From assembly GCA_964648205.1 (NCBI GenBank), contig CAZYNT010000010.1:1-24000 (forward strand): DNA of 24,000 bases, given 5' to 3'. Positions 2,701-17,385 of the stretch are shown here, piece after piece (the first letter of the stretch is position 1; each line of letters opens with the position of its first letter). Position numbers and translations under genes: made by a program. Source of the DNA: an uncultured Gammaproteobacteria bacterium. Lineage in GTDB: Bacteria > Patescibacteriota > Patescibacteriia > Patescibacteriales > UBA12465. Below the pieces are notes generated by a model that ran no database searches, was not told the DNA's origin, and saw nothing but the letters and a program-made list of their open reading frames with translations.

Positions 2701-3741
2701 CTAATTGATTTCAATATCTATAAAAACCGCTTCGGGCACCCGGGTGCGTATTCTTTTTTCAATTTCGTCTATTTTCTTGCCGACTAAACGCGGCACTCTA
2801 TCTATATAGTCCACCGAAAACTTCATAAAATTCTCATAACTCTCTTTAACCTCTTCATATTCATTTTCCAGGAAATGGTGCTGGTTCAGTTCTTTCATGA
2901 GGGCCGAGGCATTAAATTCCACGTCGCACTTGATCAAATATTTATCAACGTCCAGAATAGCCGATTTGAAATCAAGTACCTTCTCAATGGTCGGATCACT
3001 GTTAAATATCTCCAAAACGATTTTTTCGATGTCGGCCGGGATGGCCTTGGTAATCAAGTAGTTCCGATTTTTGGCAATAAGGACAATCGCCATGGCGCCC
3101 AAAAGCAACCCTATCAAGATGGAAGCACCGGCGTCCCAATAATATTGGCCGGTAATATAGGTCAGGACAATACTTATAAAGGCGATGATAATTCCCAAAA
3201 CCGCCAAACTATCTTCATATATTACGGCCAGGGTCGCCGGGTCGGCATTAGCTAAAGCCGAGCTTAACTTGGCTTTGGGCTGGCGGAGCAGATGGCCGCG
3301 CAATTCCCGAACCGCTATTAGAAGAGTGGCCGATTCGATTATAAAGGCGATGGCCAGGATAACAAGAGCCCAAGGATTGAAATGGATTGCTGTCTGATGC
3401 CAGAAGGAGGCAACGCCGTGATAGACGGTTGCGCCGCAGCCGACAAAAAAAATGCCGCAGGCGGAAATGAGCGCCCAGATGAAGCGTTCCTTGCCGTAGC
3501 CGTAATTGAATTCTTTGTCCGGTTTCTTAACCGATTGGCGGACGCCGATAACGAGCAGAAATTGATTGGCCGTGTCCGCCAGACTATGGATAGCTTCGGA
3601 AAACATGGCGCCGGAACCGGTAAAAGCAAAACCGACAAATTTGGCGGCGCAAACCACGGCATTGCCGCAAAAAGCGGCCAAAACTGGCCAGGAACCGGCC
3701 GGGCTGGCAGCATGGCTATGGATTGTTCTAGAAGTAGGCAT
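2701..3741 (-). CDS. Cation diffusion facilitator (CDF) family divalent-metal efflux transporter
   Basis: 346-aa ORF with about six hydrophobic helices. It has the CDF-type metal-site motif FSEAIHSLADTANQ in an early TM helix, plus a C-terminal cytoplasmic domain. The GC-rich TM-encoding 5' half explains the overlapping spurious ORFs in other frames. Confidence 0.85.
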   Translation of the reverse strand: MPTSRTIHSHAASPAGSWPVLAAFCGNAVVCAAKFVGFAFTGSGAMFSEAIHSLADTANQFLLVIGVRQSVKKPDKEFNYGYGKERFIWALISACGIFFVGCGATVYHGVASFWHQTAIHFNPWALVILAIAFIIESATLLIAVRELRGHLLRQPKAKLSSALANADPATLAVIYEDSLAVLGIIIAFISIVLTYITGQYYWDAGASILIGLLLGAMAIVLIAKNRNYLITKAIPADIEKIVLEIFNSDPTIEKVLDFKSAILDVDKYLIKCDVEFNASALMKELNQHHFLENEYEEVKESYENFMKFSVDYIDRVPRLVGKKIDEIEKRIRTRVPEAVFIDIEIN

Positions 3742-5112: not shown

Positions 5113-8100
5113 CTAAGCCCGCTAATTTTTCCATCAGGTCCTTAGCCTCGGAGATAGACTCTTCAGCTCCTGGAAAGTCGGCCTGGCCGGCAGCGCTAGA
5201 GGCAGAGGAAATCAGATCACGGATCTGATTAACTTCGTCAATTACTAAATCTGCAGGAATCTCATTGAGATAATTCTGAAATGATTCCTGAAATTTAGCG
5301 ACGAGTTCAATCGTCTCCGTGTTTTTTTGTTCCAGCTCAGATTTAACCAAAGCAATTTTTTCCTCAACTGCGGCAATGGTGTCGGAGATATTCTCAACAC
5401 TCAAATTAGCAATTGCCGAATCAACTGCTTCTGAAATCTGACGCTGGGCCAATTTGCCCAAAGCGGTCCAGGACCAGTAGCGATACCAGGGATGAACCTG
5501 TCCCAAGCTAGAGCCTGAATAATAGCCAATAAACGATCGAACGGCTTTTAGTGTTTCCACCTCGGCTTCTTCCTGGTTCTTTTTTAGAACCAAGCGCACT
5601 TGATCGCCGGACACGCAGAGAGATGGATAAGCACAAAGGCTTGAACCGTCATCCTTAACGGCGACTTCGATCGGCTTCAGCTGAACTAAAAGATTTTTTA
5701 AATTTTCCTGACCTTCCAGCCAAGAAGAATTAAAGCTTCTTTCCGCCTGCGACCAAGCTTCAGTTAAGCGCTTATTTTCAAAATAAGCTTTAACTTCCAC
5801 CCAGTCACAAAAGCTGTTATTCCAATCAACGCTGAGACTGACTGAACGACCGCCGGGTAGGGTAACTGCCCCCTCGGACTCTTTGGCCATCTGCTCAGTT
5901 ATTTGAATGCTGGCCTGATTTTCTGAATAGGAAACGTGAATTTCTTCGCCGTTAACTATTATTGAATCAGGATTCTCGGCCAAAATCTTAGCTTCCTTAG
6001 CGGCATCAATAACCGGCAGAAGCAATGATTCTGTTTGAGCGTCAGCGAGACGAGCCGTGCCGTTAAGCTTCTCACGGCAGAATTCTTGCCATTCCCAATT
6101 TGAATTCGGGCACAAGAAAATCTTTTCGCCAGAGCGCTGATTAAGCTCGCGCATCCGCTTCGCCGTGGCGACGTTCTGAGCGACAAAATCATATCCGGCC
6201 AGGCTATAGCCGTAATACAATTTGTTCGCCAACCATTGGGCGAAAACTTCAGCGGCCTGAGAATGATCAGGCGTTTCCACGACTTCTTCTTTAACGAGTA
6301 TGCCGTTAAAATAAGTCTGCCGCGTTGAAACGCATGCGTCTTTCTCTGAGTTGTATTGAGGATTTACCCCCTCAACAACCTTAGAAAGCTGCGGTGCGAC
6401 TTCGACGAGCATGGTCGGATTAACGCTCGTGGCCATCGTAACCAGGTGCAGAATCATCCGGCCACGGCGAGTCTGAATCTCAATATCAAACGGAAGTCCG
6501 ATAAGCCAGTCCCCACCGAATTGAAGTTCTTCTCTCGCCTGCTTGCGGATCGTGTCGTCACCGTTTTTCCATTCGCCCCAGCTAACCGACTTATAAAGAT
6601 GGTCGATCATGCCGGAACAGATGGCGCGCATAATATCATCCCGCTTCCCGGAACTCTGCAAAGAATGAACTTTGCCTTTCAGGGAATCGGTTAATAGACG
6701 GCGGCGATCATTAGCCTGATGATAGGCCTTAACAAAAAGGCCATTCAGACGACGGTCTTCGTTCGACAGATTTTTAGCGCCGCGAAAAATTGCCAGTTGA
6801 GCGAGAACATTACTGTCTTTCTCTTCCGGACAAAACTTCCGACGGGCTAAATCATTGCCATCTTCTTCGCTCCCGTCCGGCATTTTCACCTTCCGAGAAG
6901 TGATACCGCCCTGCTCGAGAATTGCAGCGACACTAATAATGTCACCAACTACTCCGAGCTTATCGGCCTCTACGATCATGCGACCATATTGGACCGAAAT
7001 AGGAAGGCGGGCAACCTGGCGGCCGGTGGAAGTTACTTCGCCGTTTTCATCCATACAGCCGAGAGCTCTTAAAGCCCTTTTAGCCTCATGGATCTGATCG
7101 AGAGGCGGCTGATGAAAAAAGCTAAGTTCTTCCGCGTCAATTTTGGCTTCAGCCAAACGGAGAACCGTCTGGTCTAAACGGACGCGAAGAATTTCAGCCA
7201 GCGGAAAATCTAAACGACCTTCGCCCTGGGGGCAATGATCAATGTAGATTCCTTCGCGGCAACGGCCAGCCCGGCCTTTACGCTGTGCGCGGTCAGCCAT
7301 GGAAATAGCGCGCAGGTATAAACCCTCAACGCCGTCCATCAGTTCAATCCGCTTTTCTGTGCCGTCATCAACCACAGCGTCGATGTCCTCGATAGTAATC
7401 GAAGTCTGCGCAACGTTCGTAGCGATGACGCACTTGGCGCGATCGTAAGTTCTGAAAACCTTATCCTGGTCTTCGGACTCCAACTCGCCATGGAGCGGCA
7501 ATATTTCCGCCTGCAGGCCTTCGACTTTTTTCAAAGCGGCAGTCAGTTCCAAAATTTCCGCTTTGCCCGGTTTAAAAACCAGAACATTGCGGCCTTCCTG
7601 AAGAAGGGTCGTAACATCCTGGAGAACGTTCAAGCTCTGCATCCTTTCGGAATGATCAGCCTGACGTTCCTCGACCGGATAACAGCGGCCTGGAACAGAA
7701 ATCACCGGCGCCGAACTAAAAAACTCAGATAATTTTTCCGCCTCTAACGTGGCGGACATTATCACGAGCTTGAAGGCGGCACCATTCTCAATCTGGCGTT
7801 TTGACCAAGCGGCCAAAACTTCCATATTAAGATTCCACTCGTGGACCTCGTCCAGCACCAGGATATGATGCCGTCCGACGCCCATCAATTCTCGCACCAG
7901 GGCTAAGCCATCGGTGCAGAAAAGACAACGGGTGCTGGCGGAATCCTGGCGCTCGTAAGCGGTCCGGAAACCAATTTCCTGCCCGAGCTCCCCGTTCCGT
8001 TCCTGAGCGACGCGTTTGGCCACTGAACGAGCGGCTAAACGGCGCGGCTGAGTCACGACCAAGGAATATCCTTCGTCGAGTAAGAACTGCGGCACGCGGG

Positions 8101-9076: not shown

Positions 9077-9140
9077 AAAAACATAATTTAAAATTATGTT
9101 TTTGGAAAAGAAGCGAACTGGATGAACAACCAGTTCGCTT
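9077..9140 (-). terminator. Junction module B: GC hairpin with UGUUCAU loop plus perfect AU palindrome, downstream of the 350-aa gene
   Basis: Minus sense reads AAGCGAACUGG-UUGUUCAU-CCAGUUCGCUU (9111-9140), then CUUUUCC. Next is a 13-bp perfect palindrome AAAAACAUAAUUU/AAAUUAUGUUUUU (9077-9103), followed by AGAGAAGAAG, which can pair back to the CUUUUC tract. The stem differs from module A by a compensated C-G to U-A change. Confidence 0.6.
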
Positions 9141-9236: not shown

Positions 9237-10289
9237 CTACCTGGTGAATCCAGGCACAGAAACTATCTGGCCGTTCTCGCGGATGACCGCGGGGTGGCCA
9301 GTTGCCGGCGCGACCACGTCGGGACGGGCGCCGCCCAAGGCAGTCAGCAACATTCCGCTGACCACCAAAAACTTACCCGGTTGCGGCGCTGGCAGCCCGG
9401 TGACTTCACCGAACTTCTGTTCGGTGATGCCGTCGCCGTCGAAATCGGCAAACGACGCGGCCACGCGGGGAGCAGGGGCGGCGGGAATAAGGACCCGCCC
9501 ATCGTTAAGCCGCAGCATGTGCGGCGTCAGATTGACAAATTTTTCACCCAATGCGAACCGGGTGAAAAATTCTGCCTCAGTCTGGTTAGGGTAACCGCCC
9601 CAGTAGGCGGAGCCACCCGACTTGCCGAGACCGGAACCGCCGTTCCAGCCTTCGAACTTTTCTTTAAGGACAGCGCACAATTGTCCGTCCCCATAAAAAT
9701 TCACCTCCCCGTCGCCGGAGAGGACCAGGAGCTGGTCGTACTGACCGAATAAACGGTCAGTGACGGTTGCTGACTTGCTGTGCGAAAGGCGCACGATCGT
9801 CAGGCGACCGACGATTTCGCGACTGGCAATCGCGATTTCAGCGGCCGCTTCCTGCTCGGACGTAATACCCTGAGCGGAACGGTCGGCCAAGCGAACCTCA
9901 GCTACTTCCTCGGGCGTGACGTCCATTGCCATCATCGCCGGAATGTAGCCGCTGTCGTTGGCGGCGATGAGCTGCTGATAGCGGTTCGGCTCCAGGCCGA
10001 GCAGGTTCAACACCTGCAGGATGGAGGCCGGTTCCGCGGCTCGGTCGCCATGATGGTCGACCAGAATGACTCCTTCCGGCAGGTCGATGTCCTTGGTCAG
10101 CTCGACCAGAACCGGGACCTTGCCTGCGCTTGCCGCTTCAGCAATTTCAGTGGCATAGGCGGAGGCCGCGGCGCCCCAGCCCAAGTTATTATTTCTGACT
10201 TCGGCGCCGGTCACTGCCAGCACCTGAGCGATTTCGGTCATCTCGGCATCGCGTCCGCCGAGGAAAAATACAAAATTTTTCTTATTCAT
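9237..10289 (-). CDS. Hypothetical protein, strongly GC-enriched (350 aa from the preferred start)
   Basis: Track ORF 9237..10358. I prefer the ATG at 10289 (MNKKNFVFFLGGRDAEM), but the start is ambiguous. Hand counts of 60-nt lines give ~62-65% GC against ~32-42% in the right-hand genes. Three long spurious ORFs overlap it in other frames, as expected for stop-poor GC-rich DNA. Motifs seen are LVDHHG and DFDGDG. Confidence 0.6.
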   Translation of the reverse strand: MNKKNFVFFLGGRDAEMTEIAQVLAVTGAEVRNNNLGWGAAASAYATEIAEAASAGKVPVLVELTKDIDLPEGVILVDHHGDRAAEPASILQVLNLLGLEPNRYQQLIAANDSGYIPAMMAMDVTPEEVAEVRLADRSAQGITSEQEAAAEIAIASREIVGRLTIVRLSHSKSATVTDRLFGQYDQLLVLSGDGEVNFYGDGQLCAVLKEKFEGWNGGSGLGKSGGSAYWGGYPNQTEAEFFTRFALGEKFVNLTPHMLRLNDGRVLIPAAPAPRVAASFADFDGDGITEQKFGEVTGLPAPQPGKFLVVSGMLLTALGGARPDVVAPATGHPAVIRENGQIVSVPGFTR

Positions 10290-10418
10290 TTTTATTGCCG
10301 CTCTTAACGGCTTTTGTTTCCTCCGAAGTGACATTACCCGGATTATCCTGAGGCTCATCTTTTAAAATGAAACACAAAATAATCCGAACAATAGGCTTAA
10401 GTTAAAAATGAAAACAAA

Positions 10419-10480
10419 TTCGCTTTCGTCTTGCCGAAATAATCGGAAGACTCATCAGCCCGTCTGAGACGAGGAGCAAA
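10419..10480 (-). ncRNA. Hammerhead ribozyme, type III topology (candidate)
   Basis: Minus sense reads UUUGCU C CUCGUC-UCA-GACGGG CUGAUGA GUCUUCCGA-UUAUU-UCGGCAAGAC GAA AGCGAA. The CUGAUGA core is present, G10.1/C11.1 close stem II, and GAA, A15.1:U16.1 and C17 are in place. All three stems form; I and II are closed and III is open. The G.U pairs are consistent only with the minus strand. Confidence 0.75.
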
Positions 10481-10481
10481 A

Positions 10482-10506
10482 GGGGCAAGATTGAACGGCT
10501 TGCCCC
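10482..10506 (-). terminator. Junction module D hairpin (CGUUCAA-type loop) abutting the hammerhead; terminator function doubtful
   Basis: Minus sense reads GGGGCAAG-CCGUUCAAU-CUUGCCCC. The following UUUU is part of hammerhead stem III. The hairpin lies 140 nt downstream of the 78-aa gene stop. Confidence 0.4.
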
Positions 10507-10646
10507 CCGAACTTCCCGATGGCTAACGCCAAATCCTTTTCGAGAGAAAGGAACCCACTATTTTTTCTCCAACCGTAAGGGAATTTTATATTGGCTGGGT
10601 TTCATTCCCGGTTAATGCAGATTAGTGACTGCTCCCGGTTTTCAGT

Positions 10647-10883
10647 TCAAAGCGAGAAATCTTCGTAGAAGATTTCTACCTTTTTACCTTCTCTGATAAA
10701 GAGGGTGCCGCCATAAGAACTCCAACCATTCCCTTGGCGCACCTCTTCGTGACCAATGTCGATTTTAACAACATTGGTCACAACCTTACCCTTAAGAGTA
10801 AGGTTGAAGGTGATTGAACTAATCCAGCTCTCGATCGCCAGGCTAGAGGCGTCGAGGCCGAAGTTTTTTGCTAAACTAGCCAT
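10647..10883 (-). CDS. Small hypothetical protein (78 aa)
   Basis: ORF with ATG at 10883 preceded by GAGG about 9 nt upstream. The sequence looks beta-rich and I recognise no family. Confidence 0.5.
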   Translation of the reverse strand: MASLAKNFGLDASSLAIESWISSITFNLTLKGKVVTNVVKIDIGHEEVRQGNGWSSYGGTLFIREGKKVEIFYEDFSL

Positions 10884-10888
10884 AACTT

Positions 10889-10935
10889 AAGCCTCAAGGA
10901 TGCTGCGTTCATAAATCGCTTCATCTTTAAGGCCT
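10889..10935 (-). promoter_or_regulatory. 5'-UTR hairpin sequestering the Shine-Dalgarno of the 78-aa gene
   Basis: Minus-sense AGGCCUUAA (10927-10935) pairs with UUGAGGCUU (10889-10897) over 9 bp, including two G.U pairs that are mismatches on the plus strand. The 29-nt spacer has inner GAUG/CAUC and GCG/CGC pairs. The 3' arm contains the GAGG Shine-Dalgarno and ends 5 nt before the AUG. Confidence 0.5.
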
Positions 10936-10989
10936 ATATATATCTAATTTAACTAATTTTTTAAACTAATTAATTTCGATTATTAAATT

Positions 10990-11633
10990 TTTAAAGTCCT
11001 TTCCCCTCCCGATACTCAGGTCCTGATCTATTTCGAGGAAATTTCCGGGCCCCAAACTTGTTCAAGGTTTGAGACTTCGGCCGATCTCCTCGTAAGAGAC
11101 GGTCGCGATAGCCGCTGTTCACTGATCCTTTTCTCCTTGCGGAAATACGGACACAAATTACTAGGATCGCCTGCGCCTTCGGATACGGTTTGCGACGTAC
11201 CCTCCGGATCGGCTCGACTAAACGCTGATTCTAACTGTTTAAGTTAGAAGCAAACGATAGGCGTTTTGCTAATCTCGGGACATGGACTCTCTCCCGGCTC
11301 ATTTTTTGAACCAATGGCTGTCCATTTCAATCTCCTAAAATCGGCAGTAAACGCTATTATTTTTATAATGTACTAAGAAATAATTTAACCGTTATTTCTT
11401 CGGCTGAGCTTGCGCTCCTTATCCGCAGGGCGGATAGTGATGAAGAGGAGCTACCGACAGTCTTGATAGGAATCTGTTAAAGCGGCATGGGTGATCACTT
11501 TAAACTTCATATTCGATTTTCCTGATAACTGTCATTTTTTATAGAACCGCAAATAAGTTTATTATGACTTTTTCGCAGTATCTAACTCTCTCCACTTCAT
11601 TACTATTCGTCTTGCTTTAGCGCCATTGGCACC
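10990..11633 (-). ncRNA. Structured non-coding region of unknown class (one or more RNAs; boundaries and strand tentative)
   Basis: No ORF of 60 aa or more. There are many GC-rich local helices in an AT-rich context. Examples are 11420-11436 (UAUCCGC/GCGGAUA) nested in 11414-11419/11446-11451, 11375-11400 (9-bp stem), 11232-11248 (TTCTAACT/AGTTAGAA) nested in AAACGC/GCGTTT, and 11276-11296 (CGGGA/UCCCG). Confidence 0.3.
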
Positions 11634-11658
11634 AAAAAAACTCTTCCGAGGAAAGAGT
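11634..11658 (-). terminator. Rho-independent terminator (minus strand)
   Basis: Minus sense reads ACUCUUU-CCUCG-GAAGAGU, a 7-bp stem including one U.G pair, followed directly by UUUUUUU (plus-strand a-run at 11634-11640). Confidence 0.6.
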
Positions 11659-12027
11659 TGTTATTATGATTAGGCGCGATAACAATTAAATGTAAATATT
11701 TGGCCGCTTAATCTAATGGCTCTCTCCTTCCATTAATTAATTTATTTTATTGTAATGTTCTGTCTCGCTAGGCCGAATTTTATCGGCGTCTTATCGGAGA
11801 CTGGGTCTTCCTCATCTTTCTTGATGAGAAGTGGCCGCTCGCCGCTAAGGCGTTTCCTGTCTATACCCTTCGAATTGGACCGACACCATGCTCTCTCCGT
11901 CATAATGTCCGCCACTCTAATTCAGCTAAGTATAGAATCAAGAAGTGTTTGACTTTCTATTGAATGTTTTATTGAATGAACTTTTGGATATTTCCGAATT
12001 TCTCTTTGGCCTTCTCTCACTTTCGAT
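11634..12027 (-). ncRNA. Candidate ~390-nt ncRNA bounded by a promoter and a terminator, with GGAGAGAG-loop hairpins
   Basis: The region lies between the minus-strand promoter (12034-12062) and the terminator (11634-11658), with no credible ORF. Hairpin 11884-11907 is CAUUAUG-ACGGAGAGAG-CAUGGUG, with two U.G pairs valid only on the minus strand. Hairpin 11714-11735 is UAAUGG-AAGGAGAGAG-CCAUUA. Other helices include CUUCUCAUC/GAUGAGGAAG and GCCGA/UCGGC, and AGUGGC/GCCACU encloses a domain. Confidence 0.4.
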
Positions 12028-12033
12028 ACTGAC

Positions 12034-12062
12034 AGTTTAGCACCCTTTGACAACTTTGTCAA
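12034..12062 (-). promoter_or_regulatory. Candidate sigma70-type promoter facing the non-coding region, embedded in the palindrome TTGACAA-CT-TTGTCAA
   Basis: On the minus strand: -35 TTGACA (12057-12062), a 17-nt spacer, then -10 TAAACT (12034-12039). The palindrome at 12047-12062 also yields a plus-strand TTGACA. Confidence 0.4.
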
Positions 12063-12158
12063 TACTAATTAATACATTTCTCAGTAATTGTTAGTAAAAT
12101 ACAAGACAGCACTGCATAAAATATGCGTATTTATTTATTAATTTTGTCATTATTAAAA

Positions 12159-12187
12159 TTGACACTTATCTTTTGTTTTGCTATAAT
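12159..12187 (+). promoter_or_regulatory. Consensus sigma70-type promoter for the TrmB-like gene
   Basis: TTGACA (12159-12164), an exactly 17-nt spacer, then TATAAT (12182-12187), about 88 nt upstream of the ATG at 12275. Confidence 0.6.
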
Positions 12188-12274
12188 AGAGATATAAATA
12201 AGGAATCTGCTTAACGACTAATAAAATAAAAACTTATTTTTGTAAAGTTATCCACAACCCATATTTACAAATAT

Positions 12275-13126
12275 ATGAACGAAAAAATACTTTTAGGCCT
12301 TGGCCTAACTAAAGTCCAGGCCGAAATTCTAACCTGCCTTTTGCAAAACGGCCCCCAAAAAGCCAGCAACATCGCCAACATAACAAAAAGACCTCGAGGC
12401 GTTGCCTATAAGGGTCTTGAAGAATTGATTGATTTAGACTTGGCTATAAAAAAAGAGAGCAAGCTTGGCGTGGCTTTATTTACAGCCGAACACCCTTCTA
12501 ACCTGGAAAAAGTTCTTGAGCGGCGCGAAAAGGAACTGGATAAAACCAAGAAAGAATTCGCCGCTTCCCTGCCGGATCTGGTTTCCGCCTATAACCTGGT
12601 CAGCAATAAGCCGGGAGTCAGATTCTACGAAGGCGAGGAGGGGATTAAAAAAGTTTTGGAAGATACCTTGCTCAGTAACCCCGACAAAAAGCTTTATACT
12701 TTTTCCGATGTGGCTAGCTATGCGACTTATCTTAGCGATTGGAACACAAGCTACTATGCTCCACAAAGAAAAAAGCTCGGCGTTTTTGAGAAAGTTATTA
12801 TCCCCGATAACGCTCGAGCCCTGGAATATATGAAAGATTATAAGTCTAATGAAGTAACGGATATTTTATTTATTGACCATAAAGCCTACCCTTTCGCGAC
12901 TGAAATAAATATTTATAACAACAAAGTTTCTTTCGTGACCTTCGCTCCCGATTTTATGGTCGGCGTAATCGTTGAAAATAAAGAAATATATAAAACCTTG
13001 CTTTCTATTTTTAATTTCATGTGGCAATTCTGCAAACAAAATTTACAAAATTCCCAACCCGCTTGGCTAAAAAGACAAACCACCCCGTCATTACCGGCTG
13101 CCGGCTCAAGCGACCAGTCAGTTTAA
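12275..13126 (+). CDS. TrmB-family winged-helix transcriptional regulator
   Basis: The N-terminus LGLTKVQAEILTCLLQNGPQKASNIANITKRPRGVAYKGLEELIDLDLA matches the TrmB-type HTH pattern. A ~200-aa C-terminal domain follows. The stop codon overlaps the stop of the convergent giant gene. Confidence 0.65.
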   Translation: MNEKILLGLGLTKVQAEILTCLLQNGPQKASNIANITKRPRGVAYKGLEELIDLDLAIKKESKLGVALFTAEHPSNLEKVLERREKELDKTKKEFAASLPDLVSAYNLVSNKPGVRFYEGEEGIKKVLEDTLLSNPDKKLYTFSDVASYATYLSDWNTSYYAPQRKKLGVFEKVIIPDNARALEYMKDYKSNEVTDILFIDHKAYPFATEINIYNNKVSFVTFAPDFMVGVIVENKEIYKTLLSIFNFMWQFCKQNLQNSQPAWLKRQTTPSLPAAGSSDQSV

Positions 13127-16100
13127 TTAAGTTCCGTCGGCTTAACGATATATCTCTGGATGAAACGTAAAATCTCTAGCAAACTGGTTGCTTCTTTAGC
13201 CTCGCTTAAAAGCTCTTCTCGACTCTTATCTATTTTTTCAAAATATCCGGCGGGCGCTTTTTCTAGGTTAGCGAAATAATGTTTTAAAATCGGACGAACG
13301 ACGCTCTCGGCGTATTTTAATTGCTTCTTATTATCCAGCGTTAAAATCTTGCCGCCGATCAAGCCTTCGCCGGCAGCCACTACCTGGTCGCTATTAACCA
13401 AAAGATCAGAGTCATTCTTATAAAAATAGGTGCTATAAGGCTCTTTAAATTTAACAACGCTTTCTTTTTCTTCAAAATCGCCGCGGAAGCCAAAACTGGC
13501 CGAACCGACTTCCGGACAAACAAAATTCAATGATAAAGAGTCTTTCTTAATTGTCTTATCCAGGCCGGCTTTAGAGTCGGTTTTTATTTTTCCTAAATGG
13601 TCTTGCAAACGCTGGAAATAAGCAAGAGACGGAGAACCCTTAGCTAATTTTGATTTTTTTTCATTAATGGAATCACGAATAAGTTTGCAAATGGTATTCA
13701 ATAGTACTTTAGCTTCCGGACTTTCGGGATTATCTAAAACCTCAAATCCTTTTTCTTTGCCAACCTGTTCAAAATTACGGATCACCGACCCTAAAATATC
13801 ATAACGAGCTTCATTAAGATGGCCGATCTTTGTTCCGTTAGTAGACAAAATCCAGGCCAATTCTTCAAGCGCATAGCCGATATATTCTTCCTTTTCCGCC
13901 CCCGAGACAGATTCTTGGACCATAGCGAAGAAGGCTTCTTTAAAAACCGGACTCTCTTTCAAATTTTTAACAATGCCGTTATAACGTTCATAATCTTTTT
14001 GGTTGCCGCTTAAAAATTCTTGGTATCTTTGAACTTTAATATTATCTAAACCAAAAGTATCAATAATTTTTTCATATTGCCTAGCCTCGCAATCGCCAAT
14101 TTCTCCTGCTTTCTGGCGAGCCGCGCTTTCGCTTTTGCCATAACGAACCTGATAATTATTAACCTGGATTTCATCGCAAATAACTAAATTAACTTTCCGG
14201 CCCTGATTATTAAGCCAAAACAAATAGCCGTATATATCAATCGGCTTGGCCGCTTTTTTTTCATTTTCAAAAACCGCTTCCCAGGATGGCAAATCCTTGG
14301 AAATGCCAACCGGAAAATATAAAGGAGCTTGGTCGGGAATATTTTCCGGCTTAACCTCGTTATTTTCAAAATTACTGAAACCATTTGGCAATTTAGTTTC
14401 TTCCTGCCCGTAAATCAGCTGATCCATTTTATTCTCCAAAGCGATTTGCAGGGGGAGGGCTTGCTGTAATTTTTTAATAGCCTCTTCATAAAGAGCCTGC
14501 TCCTCGGAAATCGGCCCGCTCAAAACATCGTGGTATTTTTTTATTTTTTCCGACCAGGCAGATGCTTCCGTTTCTCCGTCGGCCGACCCTTCTTCTTTTT
14601 TTAATTCCGCCAAAACCTGCCGGATGGCTTCCGGGCGGCAGCTTTCGACTTCCGCCATCGTTCGATAATATTCAATCATTTCTTTTATCCGCTCCGCGCT
14701 AAACTTTTTATGCTGTTCAAAGTCCCGGCGAATCAGCGTCTGAGTCGCTTCATCAAAATCCTTGATCATTTGGGGAAAATTTTGATCATCGGCAATTTCG
14801 GCGGCGTCGTCATAAGGCGAAGCAAGCCCTTCCAAAACATCAATGCCGAGCTGACGATAAACTTCGTTAAGTTTTTTGGCCATTTCTCCAAATTCCGCCA
14901 AATTCTCTTGGCTTCTAAGCAACTCCTCATTAAAGCTTGAGACCAATTTATCAATATCAACTGCGCTGGTCGCCGGATCGTTAACTTTAATATTAGCTTC
15001 GGTTAACAAATTACTGGCTCGGGAAAGACTGGCTCGTACGAACCTTTTCGTATCAATATTTTTATCGAAAAATATTTCCTGGTACATCCGTGAAACATCC
15101 TGAGTCTCGCTAGAATCATTAATTTCTGCCACCTTGGAAAGCAGCTGATTAATTTGTTCGGGCTTTAATTTTTTTCCTAAATTAATAATAGCTTCGCCGA
15201 TGCCATAGTCAATATTCAGGCATAAGAATGATTTTATCCGGTTGATTTTATCTTCTTCTGTTTTCGCCTCATTTATAAAGGCGGCGATTTCTCTTACTCT
15301 CTCTTCATTATTTTCACTCAAAAACCTTAATAAATATATCTGGTAGCGGAAAGGGATTTCTTTCAGATCAATGCCTACTTGGTCGTTGATATAGGCTTCC
15401 ATATCAGGGCGATGCATGTGCTTTAAAAATAGAGAAATTTCTTCAGTCTCTTTATCATTTATATAATCGGCCATTTGGCTGTCTTTAGACAGCGAATTAT
15501 AGTCGTAAAAATTAATTTCCAGCGCGTCATTTTTCAAATTTCTACCCAGTGTTTGTAATTTATTGGCTAGCCCCTTGGCAACTTCTGCAAAATTGGCATT
15601 AATCAACGAGCGCTCCCGCTCATAATTTTCAAGCAATTTCGCGTGCCGGCTGCCGGCGCTTTCATATAGCTCCGCCGTTAGCTTCTCGGCGGCCACAAAA
15701 TTATTGTGATGTTCTTTTTTCAAACCCTCATAACCTAACCATAATTGGCCACAGACGTCTTTTCCGTTAAACAACTTTTCCGGCTGGTTATTTTTTTTAT
15801 CAAAAGACTTCAGAAGATTAAGGCCGCTGACAAAATCAACTACCGCCGAATAAGCTTTTTCCGAATTACCTTGTCTATAGCCTGAAACAAATTTTTCCCA
15901 TATCGACTGAAGGTTGGCATTATGTTCAGCTTCTAAAATTTTTGAGGCGGCCGTGTTGAAGTAATCTAAAAAATTATCAGTCGCCTGCAAATTTTGATTC
16001 TTGGCCTTAGCATTTATGTTTGCTCTTTTTATCCGCAAATCGTCTTTCAGTTGGTCAATCTTGTCCTGATTACTAAAAAATTCCAGCCAACTTTCCCGGG

Positions 16101-17313
16101 ATATGCCGGAATCCAGTTGCGACCAAAGATCCGCTAATTTGTTCCTATCTCGACTGTCAATCTCATAGTAGGGCGAGAAAATCCGATCGTTTACCGCGGA
16201 AATTAAATTCTCAACGTTGATTTTTTTGTTATGGGAAAAAACATTTTCAATCTTTTTTAAATCAACTAGGGATATTTTCGCGGGCCGCTCTTTCTTTTGG
16301 TTATATTCATCCGCTGAAAACGGACCATAACTTACGGGGGTATTACTATGATCTATCACGGCCATAGCATCAGCCGCCACTCTCACTAACTTATCGCCGG
16401 GTTGAATCGGAATATTAGAATAAACTATCTTTTCTAATCTGTCCGATTCTTCTTTTTCAGCCAAAGATAAACTTTCGTTAAGGCGCAAATTACCCTTATC
16501 ATCAGAATATTTGACGATGCCCAGGCTAGGATCGACTTCTTCCTTGTCGAGCTGCCTCTCAGTCAAATTTATGGCGTAACGTAAAAATGCCGAGTTGGTG
16601 CCCGTTTTCATGCTCTGCAATAACAGGCGGAGATTATCCAGCCCTCTTTCAGATGTTCCTGTCCCAGCTGCGTCGGCCGATAATAATTTAATTAAATGGA
16701 TTTCGTCAAATTGCTCGGCAAATGATTTCTTTTTAAAGGTTTCTAAAAATCTGGTAAAATTTTCCTGCCCATATTCCCATGATAAGCTATAAACCAAATC
16801 ATCAACCATGCAGCTGCCGATTTGCCCATAAATTTCCGCCGATCGCGTCGCTTTGGCGGCCAGGCCGAACTTATCTTCTATATCAAGATTAGAACTTAAG
16901 CATGGACTGGAACTAAAATAAATATCTTTAATGACTTTTAAAAACTGGTTAAAATTAGGCTCCTTTTGATTTTCTTCACAAAATTTTAATAATTCGCTAA
17001 TCGTTATTTTATTAGCTTCCCTGATTCGTCCGGCATATTCTTCGTTCGGATTAAATTTTTTGTCCGCCTTGGAAAAATATGAATTAATCTTATCTTCTAA
17101 TTCATAATACTTCCGATAATCATCCACCGGCGCTTGTTCATTATTTTTTAAATAATTATTAAAAAAATCATGGGCTAGCGCTTGCAGCTCATTTTTTTGC
17201 TCCGGGTTCAAAAGACTGTTTTCATCATCTGGTATTTTTGTTTCCCGACTCTTTTGGCTGTTTGGAGCCGTTTTAAAATTATTAAAATCTAAACCCTTTG
17301 TTTCCCTAAACAT
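13123..17313 (-). CDS. Very large hypothetical protein (~1,396 aa), mostly helical, no recognised domain
   Basis: Uninterrupted ORF 13123..17334. The track start is a TTG; the first in-frame ATG is at 17313 (MFRETKG), with GGGGAGAG 13 nt upstream, so the start is uncertain. The gene is AT-rich (~32-37% GC in sampled lines). Confidence 0.7.
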   Translation of the reverse strand: MFRETKGLDFNNFKTAPNSQKSRETKIPDDENSLLNPEQKNELQALAHDFFNNYLKNNEQAPVDDYRKYYELEDKINSYFSKADKKFNPNEEYAGRIREANKITISELLKFCEENQKEPNFNQFLKVIKDIYFSSSPCLSSNLDIEDKFGLAAKATRSAEIYGQIGSCMVDDLVYSLSWEYGQENFTRFLETFKKKSFAEQFDEIHLIKLLSADAAGTGTSERGLDNLRLLLQSMKTGTNSAFLRYAINLTERQLDKEEVDPSLGIVKYSDDKGNLRLNESLSLAEKEESDRLEKIVYSNIPIQPGDKLVRVAADAMAVIDHSNTPVSYGPFSADEYNQKKERPAKISLVDLKKIENVFSHNKKINVENLISAVNDRIFSPYYEIDSRDRNKLADLWSQLDSGISRESWLEFFSNQDKIDQLKDDLRIKRANINAKAKNQNLQATDNFLDYFNTAASKILEAEHNANLQSIWEKFVSGYRQGNSEKAYSAVVDFVSGLNLLKSFDKKNNQPEKLFNGKDVCGQLWLGYEGLKKEHHNNFVAAEKLTAELYESAGSRHAKLLENYERERSLINANFAEVAKGLANKLQTLGRNLKNDALEINFYDYNSLSKDSQMADYINDKETEEISLFLKHMHRPDMEAYINDQVGIDLKEIPFRYQIYLLRFLSENNEERVREIAAFINEAKTEEDKINRIKSFLCLNIDYGIGEAIINLGKKLKPEQINQLLSKVAEINDSSETQDVSRMYQEIFFDKNIDTKRFVRASLSRASNLLTEANIKVNDPATSAVDIDKLVSSFNEELLRSQENLAEFGEMAKKLNEVYRQLGIDVLEGLASPYDDAAEIADDQNFPQMIKDFDEATQTLIRRDFEQHKKFSAERIKEMIEYYRTMAEVESCRPEAIRQVLAELKKEEGSADGETEASAWSEKIKKYHDVLSGPISEEQALYEEAIKKLQQALPLQIALENKMDQLIYGQEETKLPNGFSNFENNEVKPENIPDQAPLYFPVGISKDLPSWEAVFENEKKAAKPIDIYGYLFWLNNQGRKVNLVICDEIQVNNYQVRYGKSESAARQKAGEIGDCEARQYEKIIDTFGLDNIKVQRYQEFLSGNQKDYERYNGIVKNLKESPVFKEAFFAMVQESVSGAEKEEYIGYALEELAWILSTNGTKIGHLNEARYDILGSVIRNFEQVGKEKGFEVLDNPESPEAKVLLNTICKLIRDSINEKKSKLAKGSPSLAYFQRLQDHLGKIKTDSKAGLDKTIKKDSLSLNFVCPEVGSASFGFRGDFEEKESVVKFKEPYSTYFYKNDSDLLVNSDQVVAAGEGLIGGKILTLDNKKQLKYAESVVRPILKHYFANLEKAPAGYFEKIDKSREELLSEAKEATSLLEILRFIQRYIVKPTELN

Positions 17314-17385
17314 AACATTAAATTCTCTCCCCAAAATTAATTAATCCCTTATTTTAAATACTTTTTTATCTAAATTTTATCTAAA

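What the first reader, a model, noticed from the sequence alone, without database searches (positions are those of the whole stretch)
10419..10480. Complete type III hammerhead ribozyme core between two orphan genes
The reverse complement of 10418-10481 reads UUUUGCU|C|CUCGUC-UCA-GACGGG|CUGAUGA|GUCUUCCGA-UUAUU-UCGGCAAGAC|GAA|AGCGAAU. Every invariant hammerhead position is present in order. These are C3-A9 (CUGAUGA), the G10.1:C11.1 pair closing stem II, G12-A13-A14, A15.1:U16.1, and a C17 in a CUC triplet that obeys the NUH rule. Stem I is a 6-bp hairpin, stem II is 9 bp with one bulged C, and stem III is a 6-bp open helix, which gives type III topology. The U.G and G.U pairs become A.C mismatches on the plus strand, so polarity matches the flanking genes. 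Predicted scission after the C at plus coordinate 10474 would leave the upstream 78-aa mRNA ending in the stable GC hairpin 10482-10506. It would also give the downstream mRNA a 5'-OH end. The 3-nt stem I loop is unusually small, so activity needs testing.
Basis: partly seen in the sequence, partly recalled or inferred. Interest (0 to 1): 0.85.

Follow-up and report, generated by a model that had tools for sequence, protein, structure and literature searches.

The report
Self-cleaving hammerhead ribozyme between two genes
A small self-cutting RNA (a type III hammerhead ribozyme) lies between two genes of an uncultured ultra-small (CPR/Patescibacteria-like) bacterium; it is a conserved member of a known ribozyme class that the standard RNA database misses, and an adjoining hairpin probably protects the RNA end left by the cut.

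Summary
On the minus strand, 10419-10480 holds a complete type III hammerhead. It has CUGAUGA, GAA, an A15.1:U16.1 pair, C17 at +10474, and stems of 6, 9 (one bulged C) and 6 bp. No such motif with stems of at least 5 bp occurred in 1000 shuffles of the window.

Rfam 15 does not detect it, even at E<=10. Comparative evidence settles the question instead. A pattern built only from the core and stem II pulled 20 metagenomic loci. All of them also carry stem I (6 bp plus an NNA triloop) and stem III. Pairing holds in 97.7% of cells and 13 pairs show compensatory changes. A model built without the window scores it at 71.8 bits. A syntenic relative (L089) keeps the element with compensated changes in all three stems.

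This is a CPR subfamily that was absent from viral contigs.

The hairpin abutting the 5' side (10482-10506) is a recurrent partner of type III hammerheads. It occurs in 14/26 CPR examples and 33/47 viral type III examples. It occurs in only 4/44 viral type I examples, against a background of about 11%.

The downstream gene is not an orphan. It is an NrN-like DHH phosphodiesterase fused to a CRISPR-ancillary "Unk_01" domain.

Verdict: a real ribozyme and a new member of a known class. Cleavage itself is untested.

The parts
10419..10480 (-). Type III hammerhead ribozyme. Stem III 10475-10480/10419-10424. C17 = 10474, with cleavage between 10474 and 10473. Stem I 10459-10473. Core CUGAUGA 10452-10458. 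Stem II 10428-10451 with bulged C10433. GAA 10425-10427.
   Evidence: Sequence. MFE fold equals the hammerhead junction. Only descriptor hit in the window, and 0 hits at >=5 bp stems in 1000 shuffles. 76.8 bits with model R1 and 71.8 bits with leave-out model R2. Family covariation.
10482..10506 (-). GC-rich hairpin (8 bp, 9-nt loop) that abuts the 5' strand of stem III. After cleavage it would sit 8 nt from the 3' end of the upstream RNA. With the following UUUU it could also act as a weak intrinsic terminator.
   Evidence: Sequence and fold. L089 has a hairpin of different sequence at the same place. Abutting hairpins occur in 14/26 CPR HHRs against a 10.75% background (P=7.5e-8), and in 33/47 viral type III against 4/44 type I.
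10337..10390 (-). Leader hairpin in the 5' UTR of the downstream gene (CGGAUUAUUUU / AGGAUAAUCCG). It would lie in the 3' cleavage product.
   Evidence: Fold. Conserved in L001 and L002 with one compensatory pair, degenerate in L089.
9237..10289 (-). Downstream gene (350 aa; an ATG at 10358 is an alternative start). The N-terminal ~210 aa is an NrN-like DHH phosphodiesterase. The C-terminal ~100 aa is the 'Unk_01' domain, which is sometimes fused to CARF.
   Evidence: 326 homologues. PDB 9lq9 'NrN' at E 1e-30 (single sequence) and 6.6e-50 (profile). PADLOC C3a116 2.3e-67, DHH_CorA 1.1e-50, Unk_01 9.6e-10.
10647..10883 (-). Upstream 78-aa ORF. It is an orphan and possibly not a real gene.
   Evidence: The only match among 5.8e9 protein clusters is itself. 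No family hit. In L089 the same start context opens a 3-codon ORF.
9104..9140 (-). Canonical terminator hairpin plus U tract after the downstream gene. It is positionally homologous to the hairpin that precedes a hammerhead in L001.
   Evidence: Sequence. Alignment A7 of window, L002 and L001.
11020..11295 (-). Conserved non-coding block upstream on the same strand. It is a possible unknown structured RNA or long leader, and the most likely source of transcripts that reach the ribozyme.
   Evidence: ~75% nt identity to L089, L001 and L003. Stops in every frame in the homologues. 78 predicted pairs, 11 of them with compensatory changes, from only 3 sequences. No Rfam match.
11301..11330 (-). 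Weak sigma-70-like promoter match (TTGAAA-18-AAAAAT) at the 5' edge of the conserved block. A stronger match lies at 12034-12062 (-).
   Evidence: Consensus scan only. It is not conserved in spacing in L001 or L089.

Best explanation
10419-10480 (minus strand) encodes a genuine self-cleaving type III hammerhead ribozyme. It belongs to a subfamily found in CPR/Patescibacteria-type genomes. The subfamily has a 6-bp stem I closed by a C-(NNA)-G triloop, and a long stem II made of 5 bp, a bulged C and at least 4 more bp, with a loop that varies freely.

Proposed mechanism. The ribozyme is transcribed as part of a minus-strand RNA that starts upstream (conserved non-coding block, orphan ORF) and reads through the hairpin 10482-10506. 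It folds co-transcriptionally and cuts between C10474 and C10473. This uncouples two RNAs. The upstream RNA ends in the GC hairpin, an 8-nt tail and a 2',3'-cyclic phosphate, an end that 3' exonucleases handle poorly. The mRNA of the NrN-like gene starts with a 5'-OH and the folded stems I and II, followed by the leader hairpin.

What is shown: motif, fold, covariation, family, hairpin association and gene context. What is inferred: catalysis, co-transcription with the upstream unit, the triloop-to-bulge tertiary contact, and the effects on RNA stability.
For: All invariant core positions are present and in order, and the MFE fold is the hammerhead junction. Chance expectation is below 0.001 per window at the observed stem lengths.

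Twenty metagenomic loci were fished with a pattern covering only the core and stem II. All of them have stem I, the triloop, stem III and a non-G N17. On the 21-sequence alignment, 97.7% of cells pair. Stem I is 100% paired with 5/6 pairs doubly changed, and stem III is 93.7% paired with 5/6 doubly changed. Versions with the 3' partner slid by 1-3 columns pair in only 32-47% of cells.

Leave-out model R2 scores the window at 71.8 bits, E~2e-21. The same models also hit canonical type III hammerheads (L001, 29 bits). Rfam RF00008 itself scores L001 at 36.8 bits, E 5e-7, which links the subfamily to the class.

The syntenic relative L089 keeps hairpin, ribozyme and leader at 77% identity, with compensated changes in stems I, II and III and in the hairpin. 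Tandem same-strand hammerheads flank small gene blocks in L089, L090, L095 and L086. Perreault et al. 2011 (PMC3088659) described this arrangement and showed that such ribozymes cleave.

Hairpin evidence.
Against: No Rfam hammerhead model matches, even at E<=10 on 211 nt. The thermodynamic z-score of the 71-nt fold is only -1.46. In a 271-nt context the MFE pairs the 3' strand of stem III with a downstream U-rich run instead.

The element is absent at this position in the 80-82% identical relatives L001 and L002, so it is dispensable. No promoter was identified with confidence. The hairpin plus UUUU might terminate most transcripts before the ribozyme is made.

Family retrieval started from the window's own stem II, so conservation of stem II is partly by construction. 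No cleavage or transcript data are available.
Confidence: 0.8

Rival explanations
1. The ribozyme is real, but its main job is ribozyme-assisted termination or insulation rather than stabilisation. The hairpin ends most transcripts. The hammerhead severs any read-through RNA. The 5'-OH downstream fragment is then degraded (as with the glmS ribozyme product and RNase J1, from my own knowledge), or it gives a 5'-3' exonuclease an entry point towards the polymerase. On this reading the NrN-like gene is kept low, or is expressed from its own start.
For: The hairpin before L001's hammerhead aligns with the terminator hairpin of window and L002 after the same gene. In L001 the hammerhead is followed by another terminator-like hairpin rather than a gene. 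The window hairpin is followed by UUUU.
Against: Most family members sit 5-180 nt upstream of a same-strand ORF start, which fits production of a translatable downstream mRNA. None of 33 viral abutting hairpins is followed by a U tract. No promoter-like site lies between the ribozyme and the gene.
Confidence: 0.12
2. The ribozyme is a passenger or relic of a mobile or phage-derived cassette. It may be active but has no role for the host. It marks a variable hot spot where accessory genes are exchanged.
For: Presence and absence vary among close relatives: upstream of the gene in window and L089 but not in L001 or L002, and downstream in L001 but not in window or L002. The gene behind the ribozyme differs between window and L089. 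The NrN-like gene has 58% GC against ~40% in the flanks. Prokaryotic hammerheads are reported to be linked to phages (PMC6155905).
Against: This subfamily has 0 hits in 2.9 million viral contigs, whereas a canonical stem II pattern gives at least 120. The copies differ in stems I and III and in the hairpin with compensated changes, which means purifying selection on structure rather than recent copying. The window carries ordinary chromosomal genes.
Confidence: 0.06
3. It is a chance look-alike or an inactive hammerhead-like hairpin cluster.
For: No Rfam hit. The folding z-score is not significant. Perreault et al. list inactive hammerhead-like RNAs.
Against: Zero occurrences in 1000 shuffles at comparable stringency. 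All core positions are canonical. There are 21 family members with covariation in stems that were not used to find them. N17 is never G in 21/21.
Confidence: 0.02

Closest known systems
Hammerhead ribozyme, type III (Rfam RF00008 Hammerhead_3, clan CL00010)
   Same: Identical catalytic core (C3-A9, G12-A14, A15.1:U16.1, H17, G10.1:C11.1), a three-way junction, an open stem III, and closed stems I and II.
   Different: Stem II is 9+ bp with a conserved bulged C and a freely variable loop, instead of about 4 bp plus a loop that contacts loop I. Loop I is a 3-nt NNA triloop. RF00008 gives no match at E<=10, although it scores the canonical neighbour type in L001 at 36.8 bits.
Clustered bacterial/prophage hammerheads flanking genes (Perreault et al. 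2011, PMC3088659)
   Same: Intergenic, on the same strand as the flanking genes. Related loci have 2-3 ribozymes bracketing one- or two-gene blocks (L089, L090, L095, L086). The proposed role is cutting long transcripts into gene-length RNAs.
   Different: The setting here is a CPR chromosome, and the subfamily is absent from IMG/VR. There is a single copy in this window. The abutting 5' hairpin is not mentioned in that paper's text.
RiboJ-type synthetic insulators (sTRSV hammerhead plus hairpin in a 5' UTR; my own knowledge, not checked here)
   Same: A type III hammerhead placed just upstream of a coding region. It removes upstream RNA and leaves a structured 5'-OH leader with a following hairpin.
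   Different: This is a natural element. Its conserved extra hairpin is on the 5' (discarded) side of the cut, not only on the 3' side.
Intrinsic (Rho-independent) terminator
   Same: A GC-rich hairpin at the end of a transcription unit. The window hairpin is followed by UUUU. The hairpin before L001's ribozyme aligns with a true terminator hairpin in window and L002.
   Different: In most family members and in 33/33 viral cases no U tract follows. There the RNA end would be made by ribozyme scission rather than by polymerase release.

Membership tests
Hammerhead ribozyme (class) | Core strand C3-U4-G5-A6-N7-G8-A9 | tested here: met
   CUGAUGA at 10458-10452. Invariant apart from N7 in 21 relatives; it was part of the search pattern.
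Hammerhead ribozyme (class) | G12-A13-A14, followed by the A15.1:U16.1 pair and a non-G nucleotide 17 (NUH cleavage triplet) | tested here: met
   GAA at 10427-10425, A10424:U10475, C10474, triplet CUC. U16.1 is present in 21/21 and N17 is C14/U6/A1, never G. Neither was in the search pattern.
Hammerhead ribozyme (class) | Three helices around the core, supported by covariation | tested here: met
   97.7% of cells paired. 13 of 21 pairs have double changes. 0/500 shuffles reach the observed covariation score (4/500 reach the count of 13). Slid controls pair in 32-47% of cells.
Hammerhead ribozyme (class) | G10.1:C11.1 closing stem II | tested here: met
   G10451:C10428. 20/21 are G-C and one is G-U.
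Hammerhead ribozyme, type III topology | Stems I and II closed by loops, stem III open | tested here: met
Hammerhead ribozyme (class) | Tertiary contact between stems I and II that gives fast cleavage at physiological Mg2+ | tested here: inconclusive
   Loop II varies from 3 to 26 nt in length and in sequence, so it cannot be the partner. The conserved third A of the triloop (21/21) and the stem II bulged C, 5 bp from the core, are candidate partners. The bulge was fixed by the search pattern. Inference only.
Hammerhead ribozyme (class) | Site-specific self-cleavage giving 2',3'-cyclic phosphate and 5'-OH ends | not testable with these tools
   Needs in vitro transcription or end-specific RNA-seq.
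Rfam RF00008 / RF00163 / RF02275-RF02277 (curated models) | Score at or above the gathering cut-off | tested here: not met
   0 matches at gathering score over the window. No hammerhead match at E<=10 on 10350-10560. This fails the model, not the class definition.
Intrinsic terminator (hairpin 10482-10506) | GC-rich stem, short loop, U tract directly after the stem | tested here: inconclusive
   8-bp stem with 6 G-C pairs. The 9-nt loop exceeds the scanner's limit. The tail UUUUGCUC has 5 U in 8. Not listed by the scan.
NrN-like DHH phosphodiesterase (downstream gene) | Sequence homology to NrN/DHH_CorA, including the DHH motif | tested here: met
   PDB 9lq9 'NrN' at E 1e-30 over residues 4-203. 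PADLOC DHH_CorA 1.1e-50. Invariant D78 H79 H80. Enzyme activity and substrate were not tested.

The most novel reading that the evidence does not exclude
Two linked readings go beyond 'another hammerhead'.

(1) A stable hairpin directly abutting the 5' strand of stem III is a general accessory of bacterial and phage type III hammerheads, and I found no description of it. Its role would be to cap the 3' end of the upstream cleavage product. Type III is the only topology in which that product would otherwise end single-stranded. On this reading, hairpin plus ribozyme is a ribozyme-based way of making protected RNA 3' ends that can stand in for the U tract of an intrinsic terminator.

(2) The window's ribozyme represents a CPR-specific subfamily with a new tertiary docking solution, a stem I NNA triloop against a bulged-C receptor inside a long stem II. 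Current covariance models cannot see this subfamily. It recurs next to NrN/Unk_01-type (type III CRISPR-ancillary-like) genes.
Probability: 0.35. Interest if true: 0.65.

Novelty: new member of a known kind. Interest (0 to 1): 0.5.

Why it matters
The biological role of prokaryotic hammerheads is still described as an open question (PMC6155905). This locus adds three things.

First, hammerheads exist in CPR/Patescibacteria chromosomes in a form that Rfam 15 misses completely, so ribozyme censuses based on those models undercount.

Second, it gives a concrete, testable rule: an abutting 5' hairpin at type III but not at type I hammerheads. The rule points to control of RNA 3'-end stability as part of the function. 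It can be tested with simple reporter constructs and end-specific RNA-seq.

Third, it is a natural counterpart of engineered ribozyme insulators.

It does not change what is known about the catalytic mechanism.

Tried and rejected
- Rfam at gathering threshold (window; six related loci) and at E<=10 on the site gave nothing for the window element. I rejected this as disproof because RF00008 does score the canonical neighbour in L001 and the comparative data are strong.
- Thermodynamic significance of the fold is weak (z -1.46), so I did not use it as evidence.
- A MAFFT alignment mixing the long-stem-II and canonical types misaligned the cores. I discarded it and built models on the long-stem-II set only.
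- I looked for the same ribozyme upstream of the closest gene homologues L001 and L002 and found none. The ribozyme therefore does not travel strictly with the gene.
- Viral-contig scans for the subfamily returned 0. I rejected a phage origin for this subtype.
- A filter-off search for a second hammerhead in the window found a next-best hit of 12.4 bits, E 0.08, which is noise.
- The motif GGGGTAAGCGTTGGG, seen 3 times in L089 and once in L002, is not in the window.
- I considered that the conserved non-coding block 11020-11295 might be a reduced RNase P or another known RNA, from a remembered resemblance to GGAAAGUCC and GCAAACCG. Rfam gave no match at E<=1 on 10880-12270 or at E<=10 on 10990-11320, and there is no tRNA or tmRNA. 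I left it as unknown.
- The mini-ORF and promoter readings of UUUUAGGAGAUUGAAAUGGA fail because spacing and ORF length are not conserved.
- Literature searches for hammerheads in CPR, for an upstream hairpin, and for the stem II sequence itself found nothing relevant. The library lacks many subscription papers, so this is weak evidence of novelty.

Full report
OBSERVATION. The minus strand of 10419-10480 reads UUUGCU-C-CUCGUC-UCA-GACGGG-CUGAUGA-GUCUUCCGA-UUAUU-UCGG-C-AAGAC-GAA-AGCGAA.
- C17 is C10474.
- The core is 10458-10452.
- GAA is 10427-10425.
- Stem I is 6 bp with a 3-nt loop.
- Stem II is 5 + 4 bp with C10433 bulged.
- Stem III is 6 bp including one U.G pair.
- The GC hairpin is 10482-10506.

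The MFE structure of 10415-10485 is exactly the hammerhead junction, at -20.1 kcal/mol. Its energy is not unusual for the composition (z -1.46). A descriptor scan I wrote for types I, II and III finds this as the only good hammerhead in the window. In 1000 dinucleotide-preserving shuffles the expected count per 24 kb is 0.025 at stems >=3/3/3, 0.003 at >=4/4/4 and 0 at >=5/5/5. The motif is therefore far beyond chance, even allowing for a scan of many windows.

DATABASE MODELS FAIL. Rfam 15 gives no match in the window at gathering score. It gives no hammerhead match even at E<=10 on a 211-nt slice. The second test could be run here.

RELATED SEQUENCES. The downstream protein has 326+ homologues. 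I fetched 82 loci around them and scanned them with the descriptor. This found same-strand type III hammerheads in L001, L004, L007 and L031. L004 and L007 share the unusual stem II GUYUUCCGA...UCGG-C-AARAY.

I then ran a pattern covering only the core and stem II (CTGAYGAGYYYYCCGR N3-33 YCGGCRRRRYGAAA). It returned 0 viral contigs and 20 metagenomic loci. In every one of the 20, the sequence just upstream forms a 6-bp stem I with a 3-nt loop. It is preceded by a non-G N17 and U16.1. The flanks form stem III, although none of this was in the pattern.

On the 21-sequence alignment:
- 97.7% of pair cells are standard pairs.
- 13 of 21 pairs show changes on both sides.
- Stem I is 100% paired, with 5/6 pairs doubly changed.
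- Stem III is 93.7% paired, with 5/6 doubly changed.
- No shuffle of 500 reaches the observed covariation score.
- Sliding the 3' partner by 1-3 columns drops pairing to 32-47%.

A covariance model of the family scores the window at 76.8 bits. A model built without the window and without its close relative still gives 71.8 bits, E about 2e-21. The same models pick up canonical short-stem-II type III hammerheads at 26-32 bits (L001, L031, L089, L090, L095, L086). Rfam's RF00008 scores the L001 one at 36.8 bits, E 5e-7, below its cut-off of 48.5. This ties the subfamily to the recognised class.

SYNTENIC RELATIVE. L089 is a syntenic relative of the window. It shares the TrmB gene, the conserved non-coding block, and hairpin + ribozyme + leader at 77% identity. 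Its ribozyme differs from the window's only by compensated or wobble changes: U.G to C-G in stem III, U.G to U-A in stem I, and U-A to U.G in stem II. Its 5' hairpin has a different, equally complementary sequence.

SUBFAMILY ANATOMY. Loop I is always three bases with A at the third position (21/21). It is closed by C-G in 20/21. Loop II varies from 3 to 26 nt and in sequence, so the usual loop I-loop II contact cannot apply. The bulged C sits five pairs from the core, about where loop II lies in canonical type III ribozymes. I infer that the triloop docks there. The bulge and the adjacent CCG/CGG pairs were fixed by my search pattern, so their conservation is not independent evidence.

THE 5' HAIRPIN. 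In the window, in L089 and in many other members, a strong hairpin ends exactly where stem III begins. I folded the 45 nt upstream of each ribozyme. A terminal hairpin of >=6 bp with zero gap occurs in 14 of 26 CPR-type hammerheads, against 10.75% of 2000 random positions in the same loci (P = 7.5e-8).

To test generality, I fetched 120 viral loci with a canonical stem II pattern. The results:

| Set | Upstream-abutting hairpin | Downstream-abutting hairpin |
|---|---|---|
| Viral type III | 33/47 | 4/47 |
| Viral type I | 4/44 | 5/44 |
| Background (random positions) | 10.7% | 14.8% |

The 33 viral hairpins comprise 31 different sequences. About half share a GUGUC...GACAC stem. None is followed by a U tract.

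Type III is the only topology in which the 5' cleavage product would end in a bare single strand. Types I and II leave the stem III hairpin at that end. It fits less well with a generic folding aid, because an open stem I in type I would need the same help.

Alignment of the region after the NrN-like gene adds a further point. The hairpin preceding L001's hammerhead is positionally homologous to the true terminator hairpin (9111-9140 plus U tract) in window and L002. Hairpin + ribozyme and hairpin + U tract therefore occupy equivalent places in close relatives. I found no mention of this hairpin in Perreault et al. 2011 or in other searches. That is weak evidence of novelty.

CONTEXT. The window is an ordinary bacterial chromosome segment carrying FtsK, a cation efflux protein, an HrpA-like helicase, TrmB, an APH-type kinase and GH57. 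Its nearest genome match is a Candidatus Falkowbacteria MAG (L003, 80% protein identity). An identical contig occurs in SRR10769896.

The gene 130 nt downstream (9237-10289) is not an orphan. Its N-terminal ~210 residues match the solved 'NrN' DHH phosphodiesterase (E 1e-30, or 6.6e-50 with a profile) and PADLOC DHH_CorA/C3a116. Its C-terminal ~100 residues match 'Unk_01, sometimes fused to CARF'. NrN degrades the SAM-AMP signal of a type III CRISPR system in B. fragilis (PMC11346440). No CRISPR genes were seen among the ORFs I scanned.

In L089 the block between its two hammerheads encodes a 137-aa protein plus a stand-alone homologue of that C-terminal domain. NrN-like or Unk_01-like genes also sit next to hammerheads in L001, L004, L007, L031, L083 and L087. 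That is more often than I would expect, but I could not measure genome-wide ribozyme density.

Other neighbours of family members are varied: a helicase, Fic, PKD, CHAP and hypothetical proteins. The upstream 78-aa ORF matches nothing but itself in 5.8 billion clusters and is not conserved in L089. It may not be a gene.

Several related loci carry two or three same-strand hammerheads bracketing one- or two-gene blocks. Perreault et al. described this arrangement and showed those ribozymes to be active.

MECHANISM, WITH STATUS OF EACH STEP.
- Shown: the element has the sequence, fold, covariation and family of a type III hammerhead. It is intergenic and co-oriented with its neighbours. A hairpin abuts it.
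- Inferred: minus-strand transcription from upstream crosses the hairpin. Promoter-like sites at 11301-11330 and 12034-12062 are consensus matches only.
- Inferred: the ribozyme cleaves between 10474 and 10473.
- Inferred: the upstream RNA keeps a hairpin, an 8-nt tail and a cyclic phosphate.
- Inferred: the NrN-like mRNA starts with a 5'-OH, stems I and II, and the conserved leader hairpin 10337-10390.
- Not established: whether the net effect on the downstream gene is stabilising (insulator-like) or destabilising/terminating.

CAVEATS. There are no cleavage or transcript data. In a 271-nt fold the 3' strand of stem III can pair with a downstream U-rich run instead. The ribozyme is missing at this site in relatives that are 80-82% identical, so it is dispensable. 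The hairpin plus UUUU could stop many transcripts before the ribozyme is made. The family was seeded from the window's own stem II.

VERDICT. This is a genuine hammerhead ribozyme and a new member of a well-known class. It belongs to a CPR subfamily with unusual peripheral elements that Rfam does not capture. The more interesting by-product is the type III-specific 5' hairpin, which gives a testable handle on what bacterial hammerheads are for.

Noticed in passing
window 11020-11295 (also 11711-12268); L089 7869-8305; L001 3185-3456: About 275 nt between the TrmB gene and the orphan ORF are conserved at ~75% nt identity in three related genomes, yet the homologues have stop codons in every frame. 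RNAalifold predicts 78 pairs, 11 with compensatory changes, from only 3 sequences. No Rfam family matches at E<=10 and there is no tRNA or tmRNA. It is possibly an undescribed structured RNA or long leader on the ribozyme's strand.
   Followed up: partly
viral loci L104-L223 (IMG/VR), e.g. L194, L196, L111, L115: 70% (33/47) of canonical type III hammerheads in viral contigs have a strong hairpin ending exactly at stem III's 5' strand. The figure is 9% (4/44) for type I and ~11% for background. About half of the hairpins share a GUGUC-UUCAAA-GACAC-like stem-loop, and none is followed by a U tract.
   Followed up: partly
window 9237-10289 (-); L089 9727-10056; L083, L087, L001, L004, L007, L031: The gene behind the ribozyme is a fusion of an NrN-like DHH phosphodiesterase (PADLOC DHH_CorA/C3a116, PDB 9lq9) with the 'Unk_01' domain that is sometimes fused to CARF. 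Both are known as type III CRISPR ancillary genes, yet no cas genes were seen among the ORFs I scanned. Such genes recur next to hammerheads in CPR loci. The gene is GC-rich (0.58) relative to its flanks (~0.40).
   Followed up: partly
L089 8922-8936, 9209-9223, 10275-10289; L002 12-26: The exact 15-mer GGGGTAAGCGTTGGG recurs three times in L089, each time shortly before a gene start, and once in L002. It is absent from the window. Its role is unknown.
   Followed up: partly
window 10337-10390 (-): A long leader hairpin (CGGAUUAUUUU/AGGAUAAUCCG) in the 5' UTR of the NrN-like gene is conserved in L001 and L002, with one compensatory U-A to G-C change. It is degenerate in L089, where the gene has been replaced.
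   Followed up: partly
window ~11311-11335 (-); L089 ~7802-7822; L001 ~3153-3173: The conserved motif UUUUAGGAGAUUGAAAUGGA (Shine-Dalgarno-like plus AUG) lies just 5' of the conserved non-coding block. The ORF it opens is 8, 2 and 4 codons long in the three genomes, and the spacing to the block varies. Neither a promoter reading nor a leader-peptide reading is convincing.
   Followed up: partly
window 13123-17334 (-): A 1403-aa protein with a weak, sub-threshold match to tRNA-dependent cyclodipeptide synthase (TIGR04539, E 1.3e-4, residues 1036-1149). The homologous gene in L001 carries a weak Pfam CDPS hit.
   Followed up: no
window 12159-12187 (+): A perfect sigma-70 consensus promoter (TTGACA-17-TATAAT with an extended TG) sits upstream of the TrmB-family regulator gene (12275-13126). 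It is divergent from a 10/12 promoter-like site on the minus strand at 12034-12062.
   Followed up: no
L094 ~405-445, L096 ~2770-2805, L085/L086 upstream of the ribozyme: Family members that lack the abutting hairpin instead have C-rich, G-poor upstream tracts that share an (A)AGUAA(G) core with flanking C runs (CCCAAGUAAGUCCCC in L094, AUCAAGUAAGUCCCC in L096, only CCCAGUAAAAC in L085/L086). This may be a second kind of upstream element.
   Followed up: no
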